A stretch of DNA of 44,379 nt, from positions 1 to 44,379 of the IMG/VR virus record IMGVR_UViG_3300045988_028516; one strand, written 5' to 3'. The stretch is from a virus. Numbering within the stretch: position 1 is the stretch's first letter; each line of letters begins with the position of its first letter. This document shows positions 22,704-39,580 of the stretch, piece after piece. The position numbers and the translations under genes were made by a program. The notes beneath the pieces are model-generated. The model was given only the letters and a program-made list of their open reading frames with translations. It was not told where the DNA came from and did not search any database.

Positions 22704-23351
22704 TCACTCCCTCACAGGCTCTAATACGCACCTGCATCCGTAATGTGCCTTCGGCGGCACTTTGTCTATGTCGTAAACAACGCCGTTTCGCTTCCTGCAC
22801 TCCTTACAGACACGGTTGTCTCCCATCGTTACCCATCGGACGAGACGAACGCCGCTGTCCCGGAACGCATCACGCATCGCCGCGTCGCAAGCGCCGATTC
22901 CGTACTGCGTTGTCTGCTGCCACCAATACGCCGCAGAGCGTTTCAGATCGTGCTGGAATCCCTCTCTGCTGTCGTACTCGCGGTCTGTTAGGATACACTC
23001 GTTCAGCCGCATTCTGCGTCGAACAACCTCGTTTTCGTAGATGTAGCGCGTAACTGGATTGTATTCCTGCAAGTAGGACTCTACCCACTTTGCGTCGATT
23101 TTTCTCCTCTTTCCGGAAAAACCAAGCGATGAAGCCTGCCCGAATGCGAAAAGATACGCAAAGTATCCACTGTCCAGATACAGCTTTTTATTTTTCTCAG
23201 AAAGCCGTTTGTACATCTGCGCGGTCGTTTTTCGCGTGTTCAGCACGTTAAGCTCGTCAAATCCCATCAGAGACAGGCGGTTGAACTCACGTCGTAGGCT
23301 GTTCTTCACCTTCGGAAGCTCTTTGTCCAGCTTCTTGTAGATCGTCGTCAT
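22704..23351 (-). CDS. Minor head protein, SPP1 gp7 / Mu F-like
   Basis: The C-terminus has DNRVCKECRKRNGVVYDIDKVPPKAHYGCRCVL, the Phage_Mu_F signature. Confidence 0.82.
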   Translation of the reverse strand: MTTIYKKLDKELPKVKNSLRREFNRLSLMGFDELNVLNTRKTTAQMYKRLSEKNKKLYLDSGYFAYLFAFGQASSLGFSGKRRKIDAKWVESYLQEYNPVTRYIYENEVVRRRMRLNECILTDREYDSREGFQHDLKRSAAYWWQQTTQYGIGACDAAMRDAFRDSGVRLVRWVTMGDNRVCKECRKRNGVVYDIDKVPPKAHYGCRCVLEPVRE

Positions 23352-24768
23352 CGTCGCTTACCTCTTCCGGCTCCCATTTCTGCATCTGTTCTTGGTAGTA
23401 AGCCTCCGACATGTTGAACGCCGATTGCGGGTCAGAGAACAGGCCGCAATGCTCGAAGGCAAGCGCAGGGTGAATGTGCGGGTTGTTGAGCATGGAAACA
23501 AGCACCTGAGACTTGCTTTGAATATTATCGTAATTGTGCCGCGTGAATTTAATATCCACGTCTTTCAGCATAAGGGATAAACCGACCGTTCTCTTGATGA
23601 TGGCAAGCGCGATCTTAAGAAATTCTCTTTCGGAACGCTTGAAGTTTGCCTCGTCGGACTTCGCCCTTGCCTCAGCCGTTGACCATCCGTCACGGACAAT
23701 GACCGCCGCGCCCGTGTCGCTTGTGCTTGTGCCGCCGTTTCTGTTCGGCATACCGACGATCTCAAGAACCTTCTGGTAAAGATCGTCGATCAAGGTCTGC
23801 GTCTGTGTCTGGTTGAGCTGTTCGTTCAGAACCTTGATATCGGCCTTGTTTTCACCGAAGGATTTCAGAATAATAAGCCCTGCGTCTCGTAGATTCTTCG
23901 CCTTTTCCTCGTCGATCTCTGCATTGTACAGAACCATAAGAGACTGTATAAACTGGTCTACACCGTCGATTCTATCGCTCTGCGTCGCGTTGATCGCGTC
24001 CAAAAGCGGGAGTACGATTTCAAACGCGCCCTGTCTAGCATTGTTCAAGACATATTCGACAATCGGGATATACCGGACGGAGTTTGGGATCTCCTTTACG
24101 ATACGCCCGACTCCGTTTATGCCTCCGCTCTCGATCTCGAAGTACGTCGTGTCCGTCCAAACGCTATAAACAACCGTCAAATCGTCCTTTCTGACGTACT
24201 TGACGCCCATAACTGGCTTTTCCCCGATTCCGGAGTAATGGACAACAAACGCGCCGCGCGGGTCTAGGCAGTGCACAGAGAACGGCGCATCGTCTCCGAG
24301 GTCTGGCTTCTCTCCGACAGAAAGCGCAGGAACAGCCTTGCCCTTGATTGCGCTATCGTTCGGAAGAATGAGCCTGTACCCGATGCCGCAGATATAGAGC
24401 CATTCCGCAATCTCGTTGTCTACACATGCCTTGCTGCACAGCTCCATGATGTCGTTCAGCTCGCCGACCTCTTTGCTTGTGTCCGTGTCCGACCGGCTAA
24501 CGTATTGGATTGGCTCTCCAAGGAGATGCCCCGTTTTGAAGGACACAATCTCGTTCGCGATGTTCTCCACGATCTTGTTGCAGATTTCAGGACGGATTTC
24601 CTTTGTCCTCTGCAAAACAGGCTGGTTGCCCTTGAAGTAATTATACAGGTACTCAATATCTCCGTAGTTGGAGATATGGTCGTTCATTGCCGCCTCAAGC
24701 ACCGCAAGGACATTTCCCCTGTCTACGCGCTCGATGTCGGTTTTGATTTTTGTTCGTCCAAACTGCAT
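23287..24768 (-). CDS. Portal protein (SPP1 gp6-like)
   Basis: 493 aa from ATG 24768 (SD AGAGG). The longer ORF in the track would run into the tRNA genes. The C-terminal tail is acidic. Confidence 0.88.
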   Translation of the reverse strand: MQFGRTKIKTDIERVDRGNVLAVLEAAMNDHISNYGDIEYLYNYFKGNQPVLQRTKEIRPEICNKIVENIANEIVSFKTGHLLGEPIQYVSRSDTDTSKEVGELNDIMELCSKACVDNEIAEWLYICGIGYRLILPNDSAIKGKAVPALSVGEKPDLGDDAPFSVHCLDPRGAFVVHYSGIGEKPVMGVKYVRKDDLTVVYSVWTDTTYFEIESGGINGVGRIVKEIPNSVRYIPIVEYVLNNARQGAFEIVLPLLDAINATQSDRIDGVDQFIQSLMVLYNAEIDEEKAKNLRDAGLIILKSFGENKADIKVLNEQLNQTQTQTLIDDLYQKVLEIVGMPNRNGGTSTSDTGAAVIVRDGWSTAEARAKSDEANFKRSEREFLKIALAIIKRTVGLSLMLKDVDIKFTRHNYDNIQSKSQVLVSMLNNPHIHPALAFEHCGLFSDPQSAFNMSEAYYQEQMQKWEPEEVSDDDDDLQEAGQRASEGEEQPTT

Positions 24769-24785
24769 AACATACCTCTTTTTGT

Positions 24786-24858
24786 CGCAGGCGGCAGGAA
24801 TCGAACCTGCTAACCGAATTGCTGCCCATTCGAGCTTAACCATCTAGCTTCCGCCTGC
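24786..24858 (-). tRNA. tRNA-like gene with a non-canonical anticodon arm (8-nt loop, no U33); possible pseudo-tRNA
   Basis: Perfect 7-bp acceptor stem GCAGGCG/CGCCTGC, D arm AGCT-AGATGGTTA-AGCT, T arm GCAGG-TTCGATT-CCTGC. The anticodon arm folds only as CGAAT-GGGCAGCA-ATTCG. No encoded CCA. Confidence 0.5.
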
Positions 24859-24862
24859 GTAT

Positions 24863-24939
24863 TGGTGGGCCGTCTCGGAGTCGAACCGAGATATTACCGT
24901 TTATGAGACGGTCGCTCTAGCCATTTGAGATAACGGCCC
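24863..24939 (-). tRNA. tRNA-Met/Ile2 (anticodon CAT), CCA encoded
   Basis: Acceptor GGGCCGT/ACGGCCC, anticodon arm ACCGT-CTCATAA-ACGGT, T arm CTCGG-TTCGACT-CCGAG, then ACCA. Confidence 0.88.
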
Positions 24940-25105
24940 TTGGCTGTCTTCCCGCTTAGATTATCACATCACCGATTGCCGCTTTACATATGCGGCACCA
25001 TTACGCTGAGGCGGTTCCCTCCCACGGTGCAGTTTTCAGCGAGCATTGTCATTCTCTGTATGGCTCGACAGGCGCTCACACATCATCCGGGCGCGACCCG
25101 GCCTC

Positions 25106-25191
25106 TGGCGGTGGATGTAAGTGTCGAACTCAACAGCTCTCGCTGCGCGCTGTGTTCAAAGCAGGCTCCGGGCCGCCCGGATTCATCCACC
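25106..25191 (-). tRNA. Type-II-like tRNA (long variable arm), anticodon loop UUUGAAC giving UGA (Ser), with an unusual 8/4-type geometry
   Basis: 86 nt. 8-bp acceptor stem GGTGGATG/CATCCACC, discriminator G, CCA. 4-bp T stem TGAG/CTTA with loop TTCGACA. Variable-arm hairpin CAGC-GAGA-GCTG. 6-bp D stem TCCGGG/CCCGGA. The anticodon stem is imperfect. Confidence 0.5.
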
Positions 25192-25194
25192 GTA

Positions 25195-25270
25195 TGGCGG
25201 GGCATGAAGGATTTGAACCTCCGACCGTCGGATTAACAGTCCGATGCTCTTCCAACTGAGCTAATACCCC
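25195..25270 (-). tRNA. tRNA-Asn (anticodon GTT), CCA encoded
   Basis: GGGGTAT-TA-GCTC-AGTTGGAA-GAGC-A-TCGGA-CTGTTAA-TCCGA-CGGTC-GGAGG-TTCAAAT-CCTTC-ATGCCCC-G-CCA. Confidence 0.9.
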
Positions 25271-25453
25271 ATAATCCTGCACCTGCCTTGACCGCCGGAA
25301 ACCCGACGGCCAAAGAAACAGGAAGAAGAACATGGCTCATGGCAGCCAAGGCAGATGCAGAACTTCTTTATCCAATAATAGCATATTTCATTGCATATTT
25401 TACTGCATTTGAAACATTGCTTCTCTCAACATTGCACGCATGCGTGCACGAAT

Positions 25454-27097
25454 TTAGAACACGCGCTTCTTGATCTCTATCTGAGCGGAGCCGTGATAGA
25501 GTTCGTCGGCTAACATTGCTAGGCTGTCCGGCGCGTCGTCGTGCGTATTCTTTCCCGTTTGGGAGAAGGTACACACTTCGCGCATAAACTCGTCGTATTC
25601 CGGCGTTCGATGCTCCTTATCCACGAAATAGAATCGCTTGATCTCCGGAGAATACTGAATTATACGGCCTAGCTTGCTTTGATTGTTCGGCGCTCTCTGA
25701 GAAGTGATATTCGTTCTCACGCCGATTGCCCGGAGCATCCTGTCTACAGTGGAAGCATATTCACCGCCGCCGTTATTCGCCTCGAAGCGTTCTTTATGGG
25801 GCTTGTGCTCCTTCGTGCGATTGACGATCATCGGCTGTGTAACATCTTTCGTTCCCTTGCTGAAGATTACGTCGTGTATATACACACTCCCGTCCGATGC
25901 GATATACGCAAACGGCATTGCGAGGCTGTCACCGCCGCCCCACGCAACGTCACACACAGAGACCTTATAGAAATCACCGTCTGGAAGAACGCCGTTATAA
26001 TAGCGTAGAGACTCCGCAGGGAACAAAAGACCTTCTCTGACATACGGCTTGCCTTGATACTTCGCACACCACGTCGCATCGTCTATACTCGCCTTCATGT
26101 CCTTGTAATACTCCGTAGAGAATCCAAGGCCGTATTGATAGTTAAAGTTCGACTCACCCTTTTCGTTAAGGGCAGGAATTACCCGGAAACGATACCTCGG
26201 ATTTCCGGAATACTGTTCCTCTATCCGTCCGAGCGGGTCTGCTACGTTCCACCTTGTACCTACCATCAGCTCGAAAGCTCCGTCCTTCTTTCTGTCCTTA
26301 AGCTGATTGAGATACGCGTCGTATTTCGCCTGCAATCTAACAGGGTTCAAAGACTCCTCCAAGTCCTCGATCAAGTCGTCTACATACAGACAGCCGCCTG
26401 TGCCGACTTCGACCGCGCCCGTTAGCGTTCCTCCAACCGAACGCGCCGTAAACGTCGGAAACCGCTTCTTCCTTTCAAGGTCTATCGTCTCGTTCTTTGC
26501 AGAATTGTCTACGACCTTTACGCCTGGAAACACGTCCGACCAAAGATACGTTTCCGTGTCCGTCAGAATGTTCATTGCCTCTCTGTAAAAGCCGTCTGTC
26601 AGCTTATCCGAATGGCCTGACATGACATTTGCAACTGAAGGCCGCTTCCCCATAATCCAAGTCATGAAGAATATGCAAAGCGTCGATTTCCCGACTCTTG
26701 GAGGCAGAGACACGCCCAAGAAGTCTAACTTCCCGTCGTTCAAATCCTGCAAGTCTTGTACAAGAGGTCTAAGTGTAGCCCGCCTAGGAACATAGAAGCG
26801 CTTCTCCTTCTCCCTGTTCCACTCCAAGTACACACAGTACGAATCGAAATCGTCCTTTGCTGCCAGCAAATACGTCTTTTTGTTTATTTCGTAAAATTTT
26901 AATACCGCCTCCGAGCTTCCCGAATACCTTACCTGCAATGCCGTCGCATTCCTCAGCCAAAGGTTATGCTCGAACGCCTTTTCCTTATCTTCCTCCCACA
27001 TCGCCCTGACAACATCGAAATAGTCTCCGTATGCTGTGCTATCCTCGGGGTGCAGCTCTATATGACGCTTTATCCTTCTTAACGTCTCTTCGTACAT
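25454..27097 (-). CDS. terL: Terminase large subunit
   Basis: ATG 27097 follows GGAGGAG. Walker A-like PPRVGKST, a Walker B-like LYVDDLIED segment, and a C-terminal nuclease-like region. Confidence 0.88.
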   Translation of the reverse strand: MYEETLRRIKRHIELHPEDSTAYGDYFDVVRAMWEEDKEKAFEHNLWLRNATALQVRYSGSSEAVLKFYEINKKTYLLAAKDDFDSYCVYLEWNREKEKRFYVPRRATLRPLVQDLQDLNDGKLDFLGVSLPPRVGKSTLCIFFMTWIMGKRPSVANVMSGHSDKLTDGFYREAMNILTDTETYLWSDVFPGVKVVDNSAKNETIDLERKKRFPTFTARSVGGTLTGAVEVGTGGCLYVDDLIEDLEESLNPVRLQAKYDAYLNQLKDRKKDGAFELMVGTRWNVADPLGRIEEQYSGNPRYRFRVIPALNEKGESNFNYQYGLGFSTEYYKDMKASIDDATWCAKYQGKPYVREGLLFPAESLRYYNGVLPDGDFYKVSVCDVAWGGGDSLAMPFAYIASDGSVYIHDVIFSKGTKDVTQPMIVNRTKEHKPHKERFEANNGGGEYASTVDRMLRAIGVRTNITSQRAPNNQSKLGRIIQYSPEIKRFYFVDKEHRTPEYDEFMREVCTFSQTGKNTHDDAPDSLAMLADELYHGSAQIEIKKRVF

Positions 27098-38253: not shown

Positions 38254-38532
38254 TCATCCTTTCTGCATCGTTTTCGCGTATTCCAGCAGCGCGTTCCTCT
38301 CGGCTTCTGCCTCCGCCTGCTTTCTCTGTGCGAGGGCAATCACCATGTCCTTCCACTCGATTTCCTTGCGCAGCTCTGCGTTCTCGGCGGTCAGGCGCTC
38401 GATCATAGTGATAGATTCATCCGCCAGACGCTCCGTGCAACGCACATACTTCATTTGTGGACAAAGCCCGCAACCCTTCTCTATATGCGTCGCGCAGATA
38501 CGCAGCGCCTGTATAATTTCCTTGTCTGTCAT
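38254..38532 (-). CDS. Hypothetical protein
   Basis: 92-aa ORF with a Cys cluster followed by a coiled coil. Confidence 0.5.
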   Translation of the reverse strand: MTDKEIIQALRICATHIEKGCGLCPQMKYVRCTERLADESITMIERLTAENAELRKEIEWKDMVIALAQRKQAEAEAERNALLEYAKTMQKG

Positions 38533-39398
38533 ATATCCTCCATTCCTTCAAAAACCATTTGTCCCGGCAAAACGCCGTCCTCCAGACTCCAGTGCAGGAC
38601 GTCTTCGCCGGTCTGCCAATCGCACGGCAGGCCGCGGCTGCGGCGCTCCTCGATCATCCGGTCATAAGCCCGGATGTAGGCATTCCGGTATCCGGGGTAG
38701 CGCGCGAGCTGCACCTTCCGGCGCTTGCCCGCCATCGGGCAATTGATGCAGCCCACGCGATCTTCGCCGCAGGCGTAAAGCGGATTCATACAGATCTTTT
38801 CTGCTGCGCAGTAATCCCAGATGGATTCGGTCGGCCAATCGATAATCGGATTGACCGTTCGGGTCCCCTTGAGCTGGCAATTTTCTATCAGCATCCGGCT
38901 TTCGTCATTGTCGTTCATCAGTGTCAGCCGCTTGGATTTATCCCTGTGCAGGGTCTCCATAACGCCACGGGATTTGCGCTTTTGCGATTCCTCCCAGCGG
39001 ACGCCGGTCGCGATCCACCTGCCACGTCCGCTGGTCTCTTTGAGCGCCGCGCAGCAGTAGCGCATAATGCGTGTCGGCGGCACCAGCTTCAGCGGGATTA
39101 GTCGCCACATGGTCATGTACGTCCCGTCCGGCTGCTTGTGCTTATCGATATCGCACGGTACGCCCGCCAGCTCCAGCCTTCGGAATGTTTCCCACACATG
39201 CCAGACGGTCTCCGGCGCATCAGCTGTCGTCAGCGAGTGCAGCACCTCATACGGGATGCCCGATTTCCCAGCCAGATGCAGAAGTACGTCCGAGTCCTTT
39301 CCGCCTGAGTAAGTAATCACAAGTGCTCGCTTATACAGGCGCATACTCATGTCCGATGCCATTTTAAGCCGCTCAATGGCTGTCTGCTCCAAATCCAT
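38529..39398 (-). CDS. PAPS reductase-family (PP-loop) protein
   Basis: PP-loop SGGKDS. ATG 39398 lies 5 nt after GGAGGGG. The C-terminus has a CINCPMAG Cys cluster. Confidence 0.78.
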   Translation of the reverse strand: MDLEQTAIERLKMASDMSMRLYKRALVITYSGGKDSDVLLHLAGKSGIPYEVLHSLTTADAPETVWHVWETFRRLELAGVPCDIDKHKQPDGTYMTMWRLIPLKLVPPTRIMRYCCAALKETSGRGRWIATGVRWEESQKRKSRGVMETLHRDKSKRLTLMNDNDESRMLIENCQLKGTRTVNPIIDWPTESIWDYCAAEKICMNPLYACGEDRVGCINCPMAGKRRKVQLARYPGYRNAYIRAYDRMIEERRSRGLPCDWQTGEDVLHWSLEDGVLPGQMVFEGMEDI

Positions 39399-39400
39399 GT

Positions 39401-39580
39401 TTACCCCTCCGTGTTGTACACGATCATCGCGGTGTACATCCGCTCTGCAACACCCATGCTCTTGATCGCGCAAGAGCTAAACTTGATGTCAACGACTCGA
39501 TACGGCGTCTTCTCAAGAAATTCGTTTACGCGAAGCTCGATTTCAAATGGCGTAACGCCCTGTAGAATTTTAACTTCCAT
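39401..39580 (-). CDS. Hypothetical small protein
   Basis: ATG 39580 lies 6 nt after AAGGAG; 59 aa beginning MEVKILQGVTPFEIELRVNEFL. Confidence 0.5.
   Translation of the reverse strand: MEVKILQGVTPFEIELRVNEFLEKTPYRVVDIKFSSCAIKSMGVAERMYTAMIVYNTEG

What the first reader, a model, noticed from the sequence alone, without database searches (positions are those of the whole stretch)
25106..25191. Long-variable-arm tRNA-like gene with 8/4 acceptor/T-stem geometry, reminiscent of tRNASec or allo-tRNA
This 86-nt minus-strand element lies 3 nt from tRNA-Asn. It folds with an 8-bp acceptor stem (GGTGGATG/CATCCACC), discriminator G and an encoded CCA. The T stem is only 4 bp (TGAG/CTTA) around a canonical TTCGACA loop. 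The D stem is 6 bp (TCCGGG/CCCGGA) with a tiny loop. The variable arm is a GNRA-capped hairpin (CAGC-GAGA-GCTG). The anticodon loop UUUGAAC gives anticodon UGA (Ser, codon UCA). The anticodon stem is imperfect: 3 to 5 pairs, with a bulge or mismatches. An 8-bp acceptor with a 4-bp T stem, a long D stem, a long V arm and G73 is the architecture described for allo-tRNAs and is close to tRNASec. Such a tRNA carried by a phage would be unusual. It could affect decoding or act as a decoy.
Basis: partly seen in the sequence, partly recalled or inferred. Interest (0 to 1): 0.7.

Follow-up and report, generated by a model that had tools for sequence, protein, structure and literature searches.

The report
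Phage serine tRNA with 8/4 shape
This is a real serine tRNA gene with an unusual but already described "8/4" cloverleaf, carried by a temperate human-gut phage and missed by standard tRNA finders; it adds a member to a class reported in 2017 and is not a new kind of molecule.

Summary
The 86-nt element at 25191-25106 (minus strand) is as described. It has an 8-bp acceptor stem, a 4-bp T stem, a 6-bp D stem, a GAGA-capped variable arm, G73, an encoded CCA and anticodon UGA.

ARAGORN and the Rfam tRNA and tRNA-Sec models do not call it. They also miss better-formed relatives, so this is a property of the class.

Scans found about 25 distinct relatives, mostly in gut-phage contigs. Across 17 of them, 13 of 29 base pairs show compensatory changes spread over all five stems. 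With the anticodon left free in the search, every true member reads UGA or CGA, and an independent 8/4 tRNA reads GCU. All three are serine anticodons.

The gene sits in a tRNA slot of a mini-array between the terminase and portal genes. In near-identical phages it is gained or lost exactly at its own ends.

Mukai et al. 2017 already reported (8/4) tRNA-Ser in bacteriophages and rumen Clostridia. So this is a new member of a known kind, most likely a SerRS-charged tRNA-Ser(UGA).

The more novel by-product is next door: a roughly 166-nt covarying RNA module that follows tRNA 3' ends in more than 119 viral contigs and has no Rfam match.

The parts
25106..25191 (-). (8/4) tRNA-Ser(UGA) gene, 86 nt, including G73 and the encoded CCA
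   Evidence: Sequence. The MFE cloverleaf has z = -3.0. Covariation: 4 compensatory pairs in the close clade and 13 of 29 across the family. The family models score it at 112.6 bits.
25184..25191 (-). Acceptor stem, 5' strand GGUGGAUG. It pairs with 25110-25117 (CAUCCACC).
   Evidence: There are 8 pairs, and pairs 3 and 4 covary (UA/CG/AU and GC/AU).
25167..25181 (-). D arm: 6-bp stem UCCGGG/CCCGGA with loop CGG (CGGC in most relatives)
   Evidence: Five of the six D-stem pairs show double-sided changes across the family.
25147..25166 (-). Anticodon arm. The stem has six layers with a bulged C43 and a C31.A39 mismatch. The loop is UUUGAAC.
   Evidence: The outermost pair covaries (GC/CG/UA), and the bulged pyrimidine is present in all members. 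Pair 31-39 is U-A outside the window's clade.
25156..25158 (-). Anticodon UGA (reads the serine codon UCA, and UCG by wobble)
   Evidence: Searches with the anticodon left free find only UGA or CGA in true relatives.
25133..25146 (-). Variable arm: 5-bp stem with a GAGA tetraloop
   Evidence: Three compensatory pairs occur within the window's own clade. Relatives have GNRA-type loops GAGA, GAAA and GCAA.
25118..25132 (-). T arm: 4-bp stem UGAG/CUUA with loop UUCGACA
   Evidence: Two of the four pairs covary (UA/GC and AU/GC), and the G.U pair is invariant.
25106..25109 (-). Discriminator G73 and the encoded CCA
   Evidence: GCCA is conserved in all gut-phage members.
25195..25270 (-). tRNA-Asn(GUU), the upstream neighbour in the same mini-array
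   Evidence: ARAGORN and Rfam RF00005 at 72.4 bits.
24940..25105 (-). Unclassified structured RNA module ('spacer element') that starts directly after the candidate's CCA
   Evidence: It has no Rfam match. Its motif occurs in more than 119 viral contigs. Helices P1-P3 are 98.4% paired, with 8 of 18 compensatory pairs. In other phages it follows ordinary tRNAs at the same distance.
24863..24939 (-). tRNA with anticodon CAU (called Met), the downstream member of the array
   Evidence: ARAGORN and RF00005 at 56.1 bits.
24786..24858 (-). Irregular 7/5 tRNA-like gene with an 8-nt 'anticodon' loop GGGCAGCA, no U33 and no encoded CCA
   Evidence: Only a sub-threshold RF01852 match, 28.1 bits. The stems covary in L297: CGAAU/AUUCG changes to CGCUU/AAGCG, and GCAGG/CCUGC changes to UCAGG/CCUGA.
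25454..27097 (-). Terminase large subunit, the upstream flanking gene
   Evidence: PHROG 38, E = 8e-61. The identical 547-aa protein is found in 45 assembly blocks.
23287..24768 (-). Portal protein, the downstream flanking gene
   Evidence: PHROG 64, E = 3e-67. SPP1_portal Pfam on sister contigs.

Best explanation
The element is a functional, phage-encoded serine tRNA, tRNA-Ser(UGA), built on the non-canonical 8/4 cloverleaf of the (8/4) tRNA-Ser / allo-tRNA class.

Shown here:
- The RNA has a conserved, covarying cloverleaf with an 8-bp acceptor stem and a 4-bp T stem. Together they give the standard 12-bp acceptor/T helix.
- The D loop keeps GG and the T loop keeps UUC, which are the bases needed for the elbow contact.
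- It has a long variable arm, G73, an encoded CCA and a serine anticodon.
- It occupies a tRNA slot in a small tRNA array between the terminase and portal genes of a temperate siphovirus.

Inferred:
- It is transcribed with the array.
- RNase P cuts it at G1, 3 nt after tRNA-Asn, and its 3' end is trimmed back to the encoded CCA.
- Host SerRS charges it with serine through the long variable arm and G73. SerRS does not read the anticodon.
- EF-Tu and the ribosome accept it because the acceptor/T helix has the normal length.
- It decodes UCA, and UCG by wobble, during phage gene expression as an accessory supplement to the host tRNA pool.
For: Structure:
- The MFE fold equals the 8/4 cloverleaf, z = -3.0.
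- In 17 distinct family sequences, 96.9% of cells are paired and 13 of 29 pairs have changes on both sides (acceptor 2, D 5, anticodon 1, variable 3, T 2). Slid controls give at most 2.

Serine identity:
- Scans with the anticodon left free found only UGA or CGA in all true members. These are 4 extra viral contigs and 32 metagenome members confirmed by the family model.
- An independent 8/4 tRNA in L102 reads GCU.
- G73 and the long variable arm are present in all gut-phage members.
- The anticodon arm resembles that of annotated canonical phage tRNA-Ser(UGA) genes.

Context:
- Ordinary tRNAs (Trp, Gln, Gly, Ile, Lys, Met, Arg, Ser and others) sit at exactly the same position in front of the spacer element in other phages.
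- In L302 exactly UAC plus the 86 nt are absent, so the unit of gain and loss is the tRNA itself.

Literature:
- (8/4) tRNA-Ser is reported in bacteriophages and Clostridia.
- SerRS recognises 8/4 substrates, and allo-tRNAs insert serine efficiently in E. coli (PMC5389517; PMC7609411).
Against: - There are no expression, processing or aminoacylation data for this gene or this family.
- The window's clade deviates from the family consensus. Pair 31-39 is C.A instead of U-A, the loop is UUUGAAC instead of CUUGAAA, the D loop has 3 nt, and the T stem is weaker.
- UCA is only about 11% of serine codons in the window's ORFs, so there is no obvious codon demand.
- Phages with the identical terminase do without the gene.
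- No sigma-70-like promoter was found near the array.
- The scan patterns fixed part of the sequence (GATGAAT, CGG, CCTG, CAGNG), so only relatives that keep those blocks were sampled.
Confidence: 0.72

Rival explanations
1. It is a decaying or neutral copy. The gene descends from a functional 8/4 tRNA-Ser, but in this phage clade it no longer works in translation and is carried passively in a variable cargo slot.
For: - The window's clade alone has the C31.A39 mismatch, a U32/C38 loop, a 3-nt D loop in several copies and a weaker T stem.
- L297 has a further D-stem mismatch.
- L011 and L040 have an A.C mismatch in the acceptor stem.
- L007 and L012 have the gene truncated after about 28 nt.
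- Phages with the same terminase lack the gene.
- UCA is a rare codon here.
Against: - Within the window's own shallow clade, the changes that do occur are compensatory: three variable-arm pairs and one acceptor pair, with 99.5% of cells paired.
- The anticodon loop, T loop, G73 and CCA are invariant in that clade.
- A protonated A.C pair at 31-39 can be isosteric with a wobble pair and need not abolish function (established knowledge, not tested here).
Confidence: 0.12
2. It is a tRNA-shaped RNA that is not used for decoding. One option is that it serves as a processing handle, recruiting RNase P and 3' trimming enzymes to define the ends of the adjacent 166-nt spacer RNA. The other is that it is a decoy or a resistant substitute aimed at host tRNA-targeting defence nucleases.
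For: - The spacer RNA starts directly after the CCA here and in L148, L209 and L221. In other phages it always follows a tRNA or a tRNA-like 3' end.
- These arrays are rich in irregular tRNA-like genes, with 8-nt or 6-nt loops and mini-tRNAs.
- The 2017 paper notes that some allo-tRNAs are probably not used for translation.
Against: - A mere handle would not need an anticodon. Yet the anticodon stays within the serine box (UGA, CGA, GCU) while the stems diverge.
- G73 and the variable arm, which are the SerRS identity elements, are kept.
- Most family members (L210-L216 and others) are followed by an ordinary tRNA, not by the spacer RNA.
- Ordinary tRNAs serve equally well in front of the spacer RNA.
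Confidence: 0.13
3. It is a selenocysteine tRNA or another recoding or suppressor tRNA.
For: The general look is tRNA-Sec-like: an 8-bp acceptor stem, a 6-bp D stem with a small loop, a long variable arm, G73 and a UUCGAC T loop.
Against: - The anticodon is UGA (it reads UCA), not UCA, CUA or UUA.
- The acceptor branch is 8+4 = 12 bp, not 13.
- RF01852 gives no match at E <= 10.
- Stop-codon usage in the window's ORFs is ordinary: TGA 27, TAA 21, TAG 8.
Confidence: 0.01

Closest known systems
(8/4) tRNA-Ser, a subgroup of (8/4) allo-tRNA (Mukai et al. 2017, Nucleic Acids Res 45:2776, PMC5389517)
   Same: It shares the 8-bp acceptor plus 4-bp T stem (a 12-bp branch), the long variable arm, the long D stem with a small loop, the lengthened anticodon stem, G73 and a serine anticodon. 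It is also found in phage tRNA clusters and is missed by routine tRNA finders.
   Different: - The published phage examples came from marine (macroalgal surface) and alpha-proteobacterial phages. This family is mainly in human-gut phage contigs, including a temperate siphovirus.
- The window's copy has a 3-nt D loop and a C.A mismatch at 31-39.
- The family has a conserved bulged pyrimidine in the 3' strand of the anticodon stem. I could not compare sequences directly, because the paper's supplement is not held.
Bacterial tRNA-Sec (selC, Rfam RF01852)
   Same: It shares the 8-bp acceptor stem, the 6-bp D stem with a tetraloop-size loop, the long variable arm, G73, the UUCGAC-type T loop and charging by SerRS.
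   Different: tRNA-Sec has an 8/5 (13-bp) branch and anticodon UCA, and it needs SelA and SelB. Here the branch is 8/4 (12 bp), the anticodon is UGA, and the RF01852 model gives no match.
Canonical class II tRNA-Ser (7/5), for example tRNA-Ser(UGA) of Rhodococcus phage Trina and Synechococcus phage S-CREM1
   Same: It shares the long variable arm, G73 and anticodon UGA in the loop CUUGAAA. The anticodon arm is closely similar in sequence.
   Different: The canonical genes have a 7-bp acceptor stem, a 5-bp T stem, and a short D stem with a large D loop. They are recognised by ARAGORN, by RF00005 or by the record's annotation.
Non-serine allo-tRNAs and selC* tRNA-Cys (same paper)
   Same: They share the 8/4 geometry and the tRNA-Sec-like arms.
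   Different: Those carry anticodons that do not match their serine or cysteine identity (missense or nonsense suppression), or they carry U73 with GCA or UCA. Here the anticodon and the identity elements agree, so no recoding is expected.

Membership tests
(8/4) tRNA-Ser / (8/4) allo-tRNA (Mukai et al. 2017) | 8-bp acceptor stem | tested here: met
   GGUGGAUG/CAUCCACC forms 8 pairs. Across the family 97.8% of cells are paired and 2 pairs covary.
(8/4) tRNA-Ser / (8/4) allo-tRNA (Mukai et al. 2017) | 4-bp T stem, giving a 12-bp acceptor/T branch | tested here: met
   UGAG/CUUA surrounds the 7-nt loop UUCGACA. Relatives have GGGG/CCUC, and 2 of the 4 pairs covary. The MFE fold adds a fifth U-A pair by shrinking the T loop to 5 nt, which would break the canonical T loop.
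(8/4) tRNA-Ser / (8/4) allo-tRNA (Mukai et al. 2017) | Long variable arm | tested here: met
   A 5-bp stem with a GAGA tetraloop. Three pairs covary inside the window's clade.
(8/4) tRNA-Ser / (8/4) allo-tRNA (Mukai et al. 2017) | Long D stem | tested here: met
   The stem has 6 bp, and 5 of the 6 pairs covary.
(8/4) tRNA-Ser / (8/4) allo-tRNA (Mukai et al. 2017) | D tetraloop with a pyrimidine at position 20 | tested here: inconclusive
   Most relatives have CGGC. The window and several sister copies have only CGG. Opening the closing G-C pair would give a 5-nt loop, GCGGC.
(8/4) tRNA-Ser / (8/4) allo-tRNA (Mukai et al. 2017) | Anticodon stem longer than the canonical 5 bp | tested here: met
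   There are six layers plus a conserved bulged pyrimidine, and the outermost pair covaries (GC/CG/UA). In the window the innermost layer is a C.A mismatch.
(8/4) tRNA-Ser / (8/4) allo-tRNA (Mukai et al. 2017) | Discriminator G73 or U73 | tested here: met
   G73 followed by CCA.
(8/4) tRNA-Ser / (8/4) allo-tRNA (Mukai et al. 2017) | Serine anticodon (this separates the tRNA-Ser subgroup from the other allo-tRNAs) | tested here: met
   The window has UGA. Scans with the anticodon left free find only UGA or CGA in relatives. A separate 8/4 tRNA has GCU.
(8/4) tRNA-Ser / (8/4) allo-tRNA (Mukai et al. 2017) | Serylation by SerRS and activity in translation | not testable with these tools
   The literature shows this only for other allo-tRNAs in E. 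coli.
Bacterial tRNA-Sec (RF01852) | 13-bp acceptor/T branch (8/5) | tested here: not met
   The branch is 8+4 = 12 bp.
Bacterial tRNA-Sec (RF01852) | Anticodon UCA, which reads UGA | tested here: not met
   The anticodon is UGA.
Bacterial tRNA-Sec (RF01852) | Reaches the Rfam gathering score of 47 bits | tested here: not met
   There is no match at E <= 10 in a 751-nt search.
Bacterial tRNA-Sec (RF01852) | Selenocysteine machinery (selA, selB, selD) or SECIS elements nearby | not tested
   Only ten large ORFs of the window were annotated, and none of them is related to selenocysteine.
Canonical tRNA (RF00005) / class II tRNA-Ser | 7-bp acceptor stem and 5-bp T stem; recognised by RF00005 (29 bits) or ARAGORN | tested here: not met
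   ARAGORN makes no call and RF00005 gives no match at E <= 10. The same holds for the well-formed relative in L209.
selC* tRNA-Cys | U73 with anticodon GCA or UCA | tested here: not met
   The element has G73 and anticodon UGA.

The most novel reading that the evidence does not exclude
The 8/4 geometry may be an adaptation rather than a curiosity. In this reading, gut phages carry a serine tRNA that SerRS can charge, but whose altered acceptor/T, D and anticodon-stem architecture lets it escape a host or rival tRNA-targeting nuclease or other tRNA-directed defence. It would work together with the other irregular tRNA-like genes and with the unclassified roughly 166-nt RNA that sits after tRNA 3' ends in these arrays. 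The array would then be an anti-defence or host-takeover RNA cassette, not a codon-supply cassette.
Probability: 0.1. Interest if true: 0.75.

Novelty: new member of a known kind. Interest (0 to 1): 0.4.

Why it matters
The practical point is an annotation blind spot. ARAGORN and the Rfam tRNA and tRNA-Sec models all miss this class, so phage tRNA inventories are undercounted. Inferences drawn from those inventories about codon supply or recoding are affected too. I found unannotated 8/4 tRNA-Ser genes even in two cultured phages.

Biologically, the finding extends (8/4) tRNA-Ser from marine and proteobacterial phages to a sizeable family in human-gut phages, including a temperate siphovirus. 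It also shows that the gene behaves as a cassette, gained and lost exactly at the tRNA's own boundaries.

8/4 and 9/3 tRNAs are used as chassis for genetic-code expansion, so natural, covariation-validated variants have some engineering value.

The neighbouring widespread RNA module with no Rfam match may be the more valuable lead.

Tried and rejected
- **tRNA-Sec or suppressor tRNA.** Rejected on the anticodon, the 12-bp branch and the absence of an RF01852 match.
- **Two-piece or standard tmRNA spanning the candidate and the spacer.** Rejected because the candidate closes its own acceptor stem, ARAGORN finds no tmRNA, and the only tmRNA_permuted hit is 14 bits, in L001.
- **Spacer element as an HDV-like/theta ribozyme, hatchet, RNase P RNA, 6S RNA, phi29 pRNA, group I intron, or GOLLD/ROOL.**
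  - Four permissive Rfam searches gave nothing.
  - Inspecting the topology by hand, J4/3 ends in CUAA followed by a helix strand, as in HDV J4/2, but the nested P1/P3 pseudoknot strands are missing.
  - The resemblance of GAAAACUACGC to the E. coli tmRNA tag region is out of frame and varies in length.
- **Host or bacterial origin of the family.** The genome-contig scan gave 58 hits. That is close to the roughly 35 expected by chance, and none scored with the family model.
- **The four non-gut contigs that matched the D-arm pattern (L082, L085-L087).** None matched the family model.
- **Codon-usage rationale.** UCA is a rare codon in the window, and no host genome was available for comparison.
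- **Promoter search.** Nothing was found.
- **Exact-protein look-up of the terminase from its TTG start.** This failed; the ATG start at 27097 is the called gene.
- **Pseudoknot between the P2 loop and the GACAA strands of the spacer.** The pattern is not consistent across variants (by eye).
- **Sequence search of the literature for the spacer's invariant strands.** No relevant paper was found.

Full report
**Observation.** On the minus strand, 25191..25106 reads GGUGGAUG-AA-UCCGGG-CGG-CCCGGA-GCCUGC-UUUGAAC-ACAG(C)GC-GCAGC-GAGA-GCUGU-UGAG-UUCGACA-CUUA-CAUCCACC-G-CCA. The element starts 3 nt after tRNA-Asn(GUU), which ARAGORN places at 25270..25195. An unconstrained RNA fold gives the same cloverleaf at -35.4 kcal/mol, z = -3.0, and none of 200 dinucleotide shuffles folds as well. 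Two refinements apply. The variable stem has 5 pairs, not 4. The anticodon stem has six layers with a bulged C and a C.A mismatch next to the loop. ARAGORN does not call the element. Neither RF00005 nor RF01852 matches it, even at E <= 10 in a 751-nt search.

**Context.** The window is a temperate siphovirus with an integrase, tape-measure protein, major head protein, portal and large terminase. On the minus strand the order is:
- terminase (27097..25454);
- a leader of about 180 nt with a terminator-like hairpin;
- tRNA-Asn;
- the candidate;
- a 166-nt conserved spacer;
- a CAU tRNA (24939..24863);
- an irregular tRNA-like gene with an 8-nt loop (24858..24786);
- portal, starting at 24768.

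**Relatives and covariation.**
- The terminase brought in 80 syntenic viral loci. Eleven of them carry the candidate at 91-99% identity. Within this shallow clade, four pairs change on both sides (three in the variable arm, one in the acceptor stem) and 99.5% of cells are paired.
- L148 carries a diverged copy in front of the same spacer element. A pattern built from the two copies found more members in gut-phage contigs of 30-110 kb and in one 313-kb contig.
- On 17 distinct sequences, the 8/4 cloverleaf has 96.9% of cells paired. Thirteen of 29 pairs change on both sides: acceptor 2, D 5, anticodon 1, variable 3, T 2. Partner columns slid by 1-3 positions give at most 2 such pairs. The structure is therefore real and under selection.
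- One caveat: the scan pattern fixed GATGAAT, CGG, CCTG and CAGNG, so those columns are invariant by construction. The covarying columns lie outside them.

**Identity.**
- The first pattern fixed the anticodon, so I rescanned with the loop left free. In viral contigs this added four members with loop CUCGAAA, i.e. anticodon CGA, plus three chance hits with no tRNA shape.
- In metagenomes, 98 pattern hits contained 32 true members by the family model, and all of them read UGA or CGA.
- The family model also found an independent 8/4 tRNA with anticodon GCU in L102, and canonical 7/5 tRNA-Ser genes in sister arrays.
- So the stems drift while the anticodon stays inside the serine box. G73 and the long variable arm, which are the SerRS identity elements, are kept.
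- The D loop keeps GG and the T loop keeps UUC, which are the bases that form the tRNA elbow (read from the sequence; their role is established tRNA knowledge).
- The family consensus weakly matches annotated canonical phage tRNA-Ser(UGA) genes through the anticodon arm. It also uncovers unannotated 8/4 tRNA-Ser(UGA) genes in Synechococcus phage S-CBWM1 (MG450654.1 12446-12527) and Cellulophaga phage phi10:1 (KC821618.1 31845-31929).
- A scan of 185,579 representative bacterial genomes gave only chance hits. With this pattern, the sequence family is seen only in viral or metagenomic DNA.

**Behaviour as a tRNA unit.**
- In dozens of other viral contigs, ordinary tRNAs (Trp, Gln, Gly, Ile, Lys, Met, Asp, Arg, Val, Cys, Ser) end at the same distance in front of the spacer element as the candidate does here.
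- The identical terminase protein occurs in 45 assembly blocks, with terminase-to-portal gaps of about 360 to 1070 nt. Some of these phages have only the CAU tRNA. Some have tRNA-Asn, the 8/4 tRNA, the spacer and the CAU tRNA.
- In L302, tRNA-Asn is followed directly by the spacer. Exactly UAC plus the 86 nt are missing.
- In L007 and L012, the gene is cut after about 28 nt by DNA that carries an ORF.
- The gene is thus an accessory cassette whose boundaries are the tRNA's own ends.

**Comparison with what is known.**
- Mukai et al. 2017 (PMC5389517) defined allo-tRNAs by five features: an 8/4 or 9/3 split of a 12-bp acceptor branch, a long variable arm, a long D stem with a tetraloop, a longer anticodon stem, and G73 or U73.
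- They also showed that SerRS accepts such substrates and that allo-tRNAs insert serine in E. coli.
- All the structural criteria are met here, except that the window's D loop has 3 nt where most relatives have CGGC.
- The tRNA-Sec criteria are not met: the branch is 12 bp, not 13; the anticodon is UGA, not UCA; and the RF01852 score is below threshold.
- A well-formed relative in L209 also fails RF00005 and RF01852. Failing those models is therefore a property of the class, not evidence against this gene.

**Mechanism and rivals.**
- The best reading (0.72) is a functional tRNA-Ser(UGA). It would be co-transcribed with the array, cut by RNase P at G1, trimmed to its encoded CCA, and serylated by host SerRS. 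It would then decode UCA and UCG.
- What is shown: the structure, the identity elements, the conservation of a serine anticodon, and the tRNA-slot context.
- What is inferred: expression, processing, charging and use in translation.
- Points against: the window's clade has a C.A mismatch at 31-39, a U32/C38 loop and a short D loop. UCA is only about 11% of serine codons. Sister phages do without the gene.
- Rival 1, a decaying copy (0.12).
- Rival 2, a non-decoding tRNA-shaped handle or decoy (0.13). This is weakened by the anticodon staying within serine, and by family members that are not followed by the spacer.
- Rival 3, tRNA-Sec or a suppressor (0.01).

**The neighbouring module.**
- The 166-nt spacer (25105..24940) is a structured module in its own right. 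It consists of:
  - hairpin P1 (CCGGG/CCCGG, loop U[A/C]GCN);
  - hairpin P2 (GUGAG/CUCAC; GUGUG/CAUAC in the window);
  - the strand GAAUGACAAUG;
  - a long-range helix P3 (CUCGCU/AGCGGG) that encloses a variable hairpin domain, flanked by the invariant strands GAAAACU and GUGAYAAUCUA.
- P1-P3 are 98.4% paired, with 8 of 18 pairs changed on both sides.
- It has no Rfam 15 match in four permissive searches.
- Among GenBank phage records it occurs only in one unannotated fecal contig.
- No paper holds its invariant strands.
- A second class of copies shares the P3/P4 half but has a different, longer 5' half.
- I could not assign a function.

**Verdict.** The element is a new member of a known kind, (8/4) tRNA-Ser, and I score it as of moderate interest.

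Noticed in passing
window 24940-25105 (minus strand); also L001 3004-3180, L148, L209, L221, L302 and more than 119 IMG/VR contigs: A structured RNA module of about 166 nt with no Rfam 15 match lies directly after the candidate's CCA. Elsewhere it lies directly after ordinary tRNAs, usually 10-20 nt before the next tRNA. It has three covarying helices (8 of 18 pairs compensatory) and the invariant strands GAAAACU and GUGAYAAUCUA around a variable hairpin domain. A second form has a different, longer 5' half (for example L128 about 1990-2300). Its function is unknown and it may be a new RNA family.
   Followed up: partly
window 24786-24858 (minus strand); L002, L004, L297, L299, L302: This is an irregular 7/5 tRNA-like gene with an 8-nt 'anticodon' loop (GGGCAGCA, GGACAGCA or GGGCGGUA). 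It has no U33 and no encoded CCA. ARAGORN does not call it, and Rfam tRNA-Sec gives only 28 bits. Its anticodon stem and T stem covary in L297, so it is conserved as a structure.
   Followed up: partly
L103, L106, L121, L174, L179, L203 (regions just upstream of the spacer motif): ARAGORN reports several tRNAs of undetermined type in these gut-phage arrays, with 4-base or 2-base 'anticodons', meaning 8-nt or 6-nt loops. One example is a Met-like tRNA with loop CUCAUUAA in L174. Irregular anticodon loops seem common in these arrays.
   Followed up: no
L124, L145, L165, L178, L204 (about 70 nt before the spacer motif): This is a mini tRNA-like gene: GGCCAUAAAGGAAUGGGUAGAGCGGUGUAUGCCGUUGCAGCAGUUCGAGUCUGCUGAUGGCCUCCA. 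It has an acceptor stem, a canonical T arm and CCA, but only about 31 nt where the D and anticodon arms should be.
   Followed up: no
L001 about 2806-2912; L112 upstream of 3926: This module of about 105 nt is closed by a 7-bp acceptor-like stem (GCGGCAU/AUGCCGC) followed by ACCA, but its interior is not tRNA-like. In L112 it sits directly in front of the spacer element.
   Followed up: no
MG450654.1 12446-12527 (L294 139-220); KC821618.1 31845-31929 (L295 127-211): Two cultured phages, Synechococcus phage S-CBWM1 and Cellulophaga phage phi10:1, have unannotated 8/4 tRNA-Ser(UGA) genes inside their tRNA clusters. Each has an 8-bp acceptor stem, the 4-bp T stem GGGG/CCUC and G73, with no encoded CCA. 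ARAGORN misses both.
   Followed up: partly
L102 121-204 (minus strand): This is an independent 8/4 tRNA with anticodon GCU (serine AGY). Its acceptor stem is GCAGAGUG/CGCUCUGC, its D stem is CCGUGU/ACACGG with loop GGG, and its T stem is GGGG/CCUC. It ends in G73-CCA.
   Followed up: partly
window 24768-25454 compared with L002, L004, L005, L298, L301, L302, L297, L011, L007, L012: The terminase-to-portal gap is a hypervariable cargo slot in phages whose terminase is 97-100% identical. The contents differ: the CAU tRNA only; tRNA-Asn plus spacer plus CAU tRNA; the full set; or an extra ORF of about 118 aa inserted after the spacer (L297, L011). In L007 and L012 the 8/4 gene is cut after about 28 nt by DNA carrying a different ORF.
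   Followed up: partly
L304 445-531, L354 3119-3205, L220 3945-4032: These are divergent 8/4 tRNA-Ser(UGA) members with low GC and no encoded CCA. Their contigs appear not to be from gut samples, and one is a 313-kb viral contig. Their D stems differ (UUACAG/CUGUAA, UCACAG/CUGUGA, UCAGUC/GACUGA), and in one of them (L304) position 73 is U.
   Followed up: no
window 38529-39473 (minus strand): This ORF matches phage PAPS-reductase-like families (PHROG 424, E = 3e-35). It is an auxiliary gene and has no evident link to the tRNA array.
   Followed up: no
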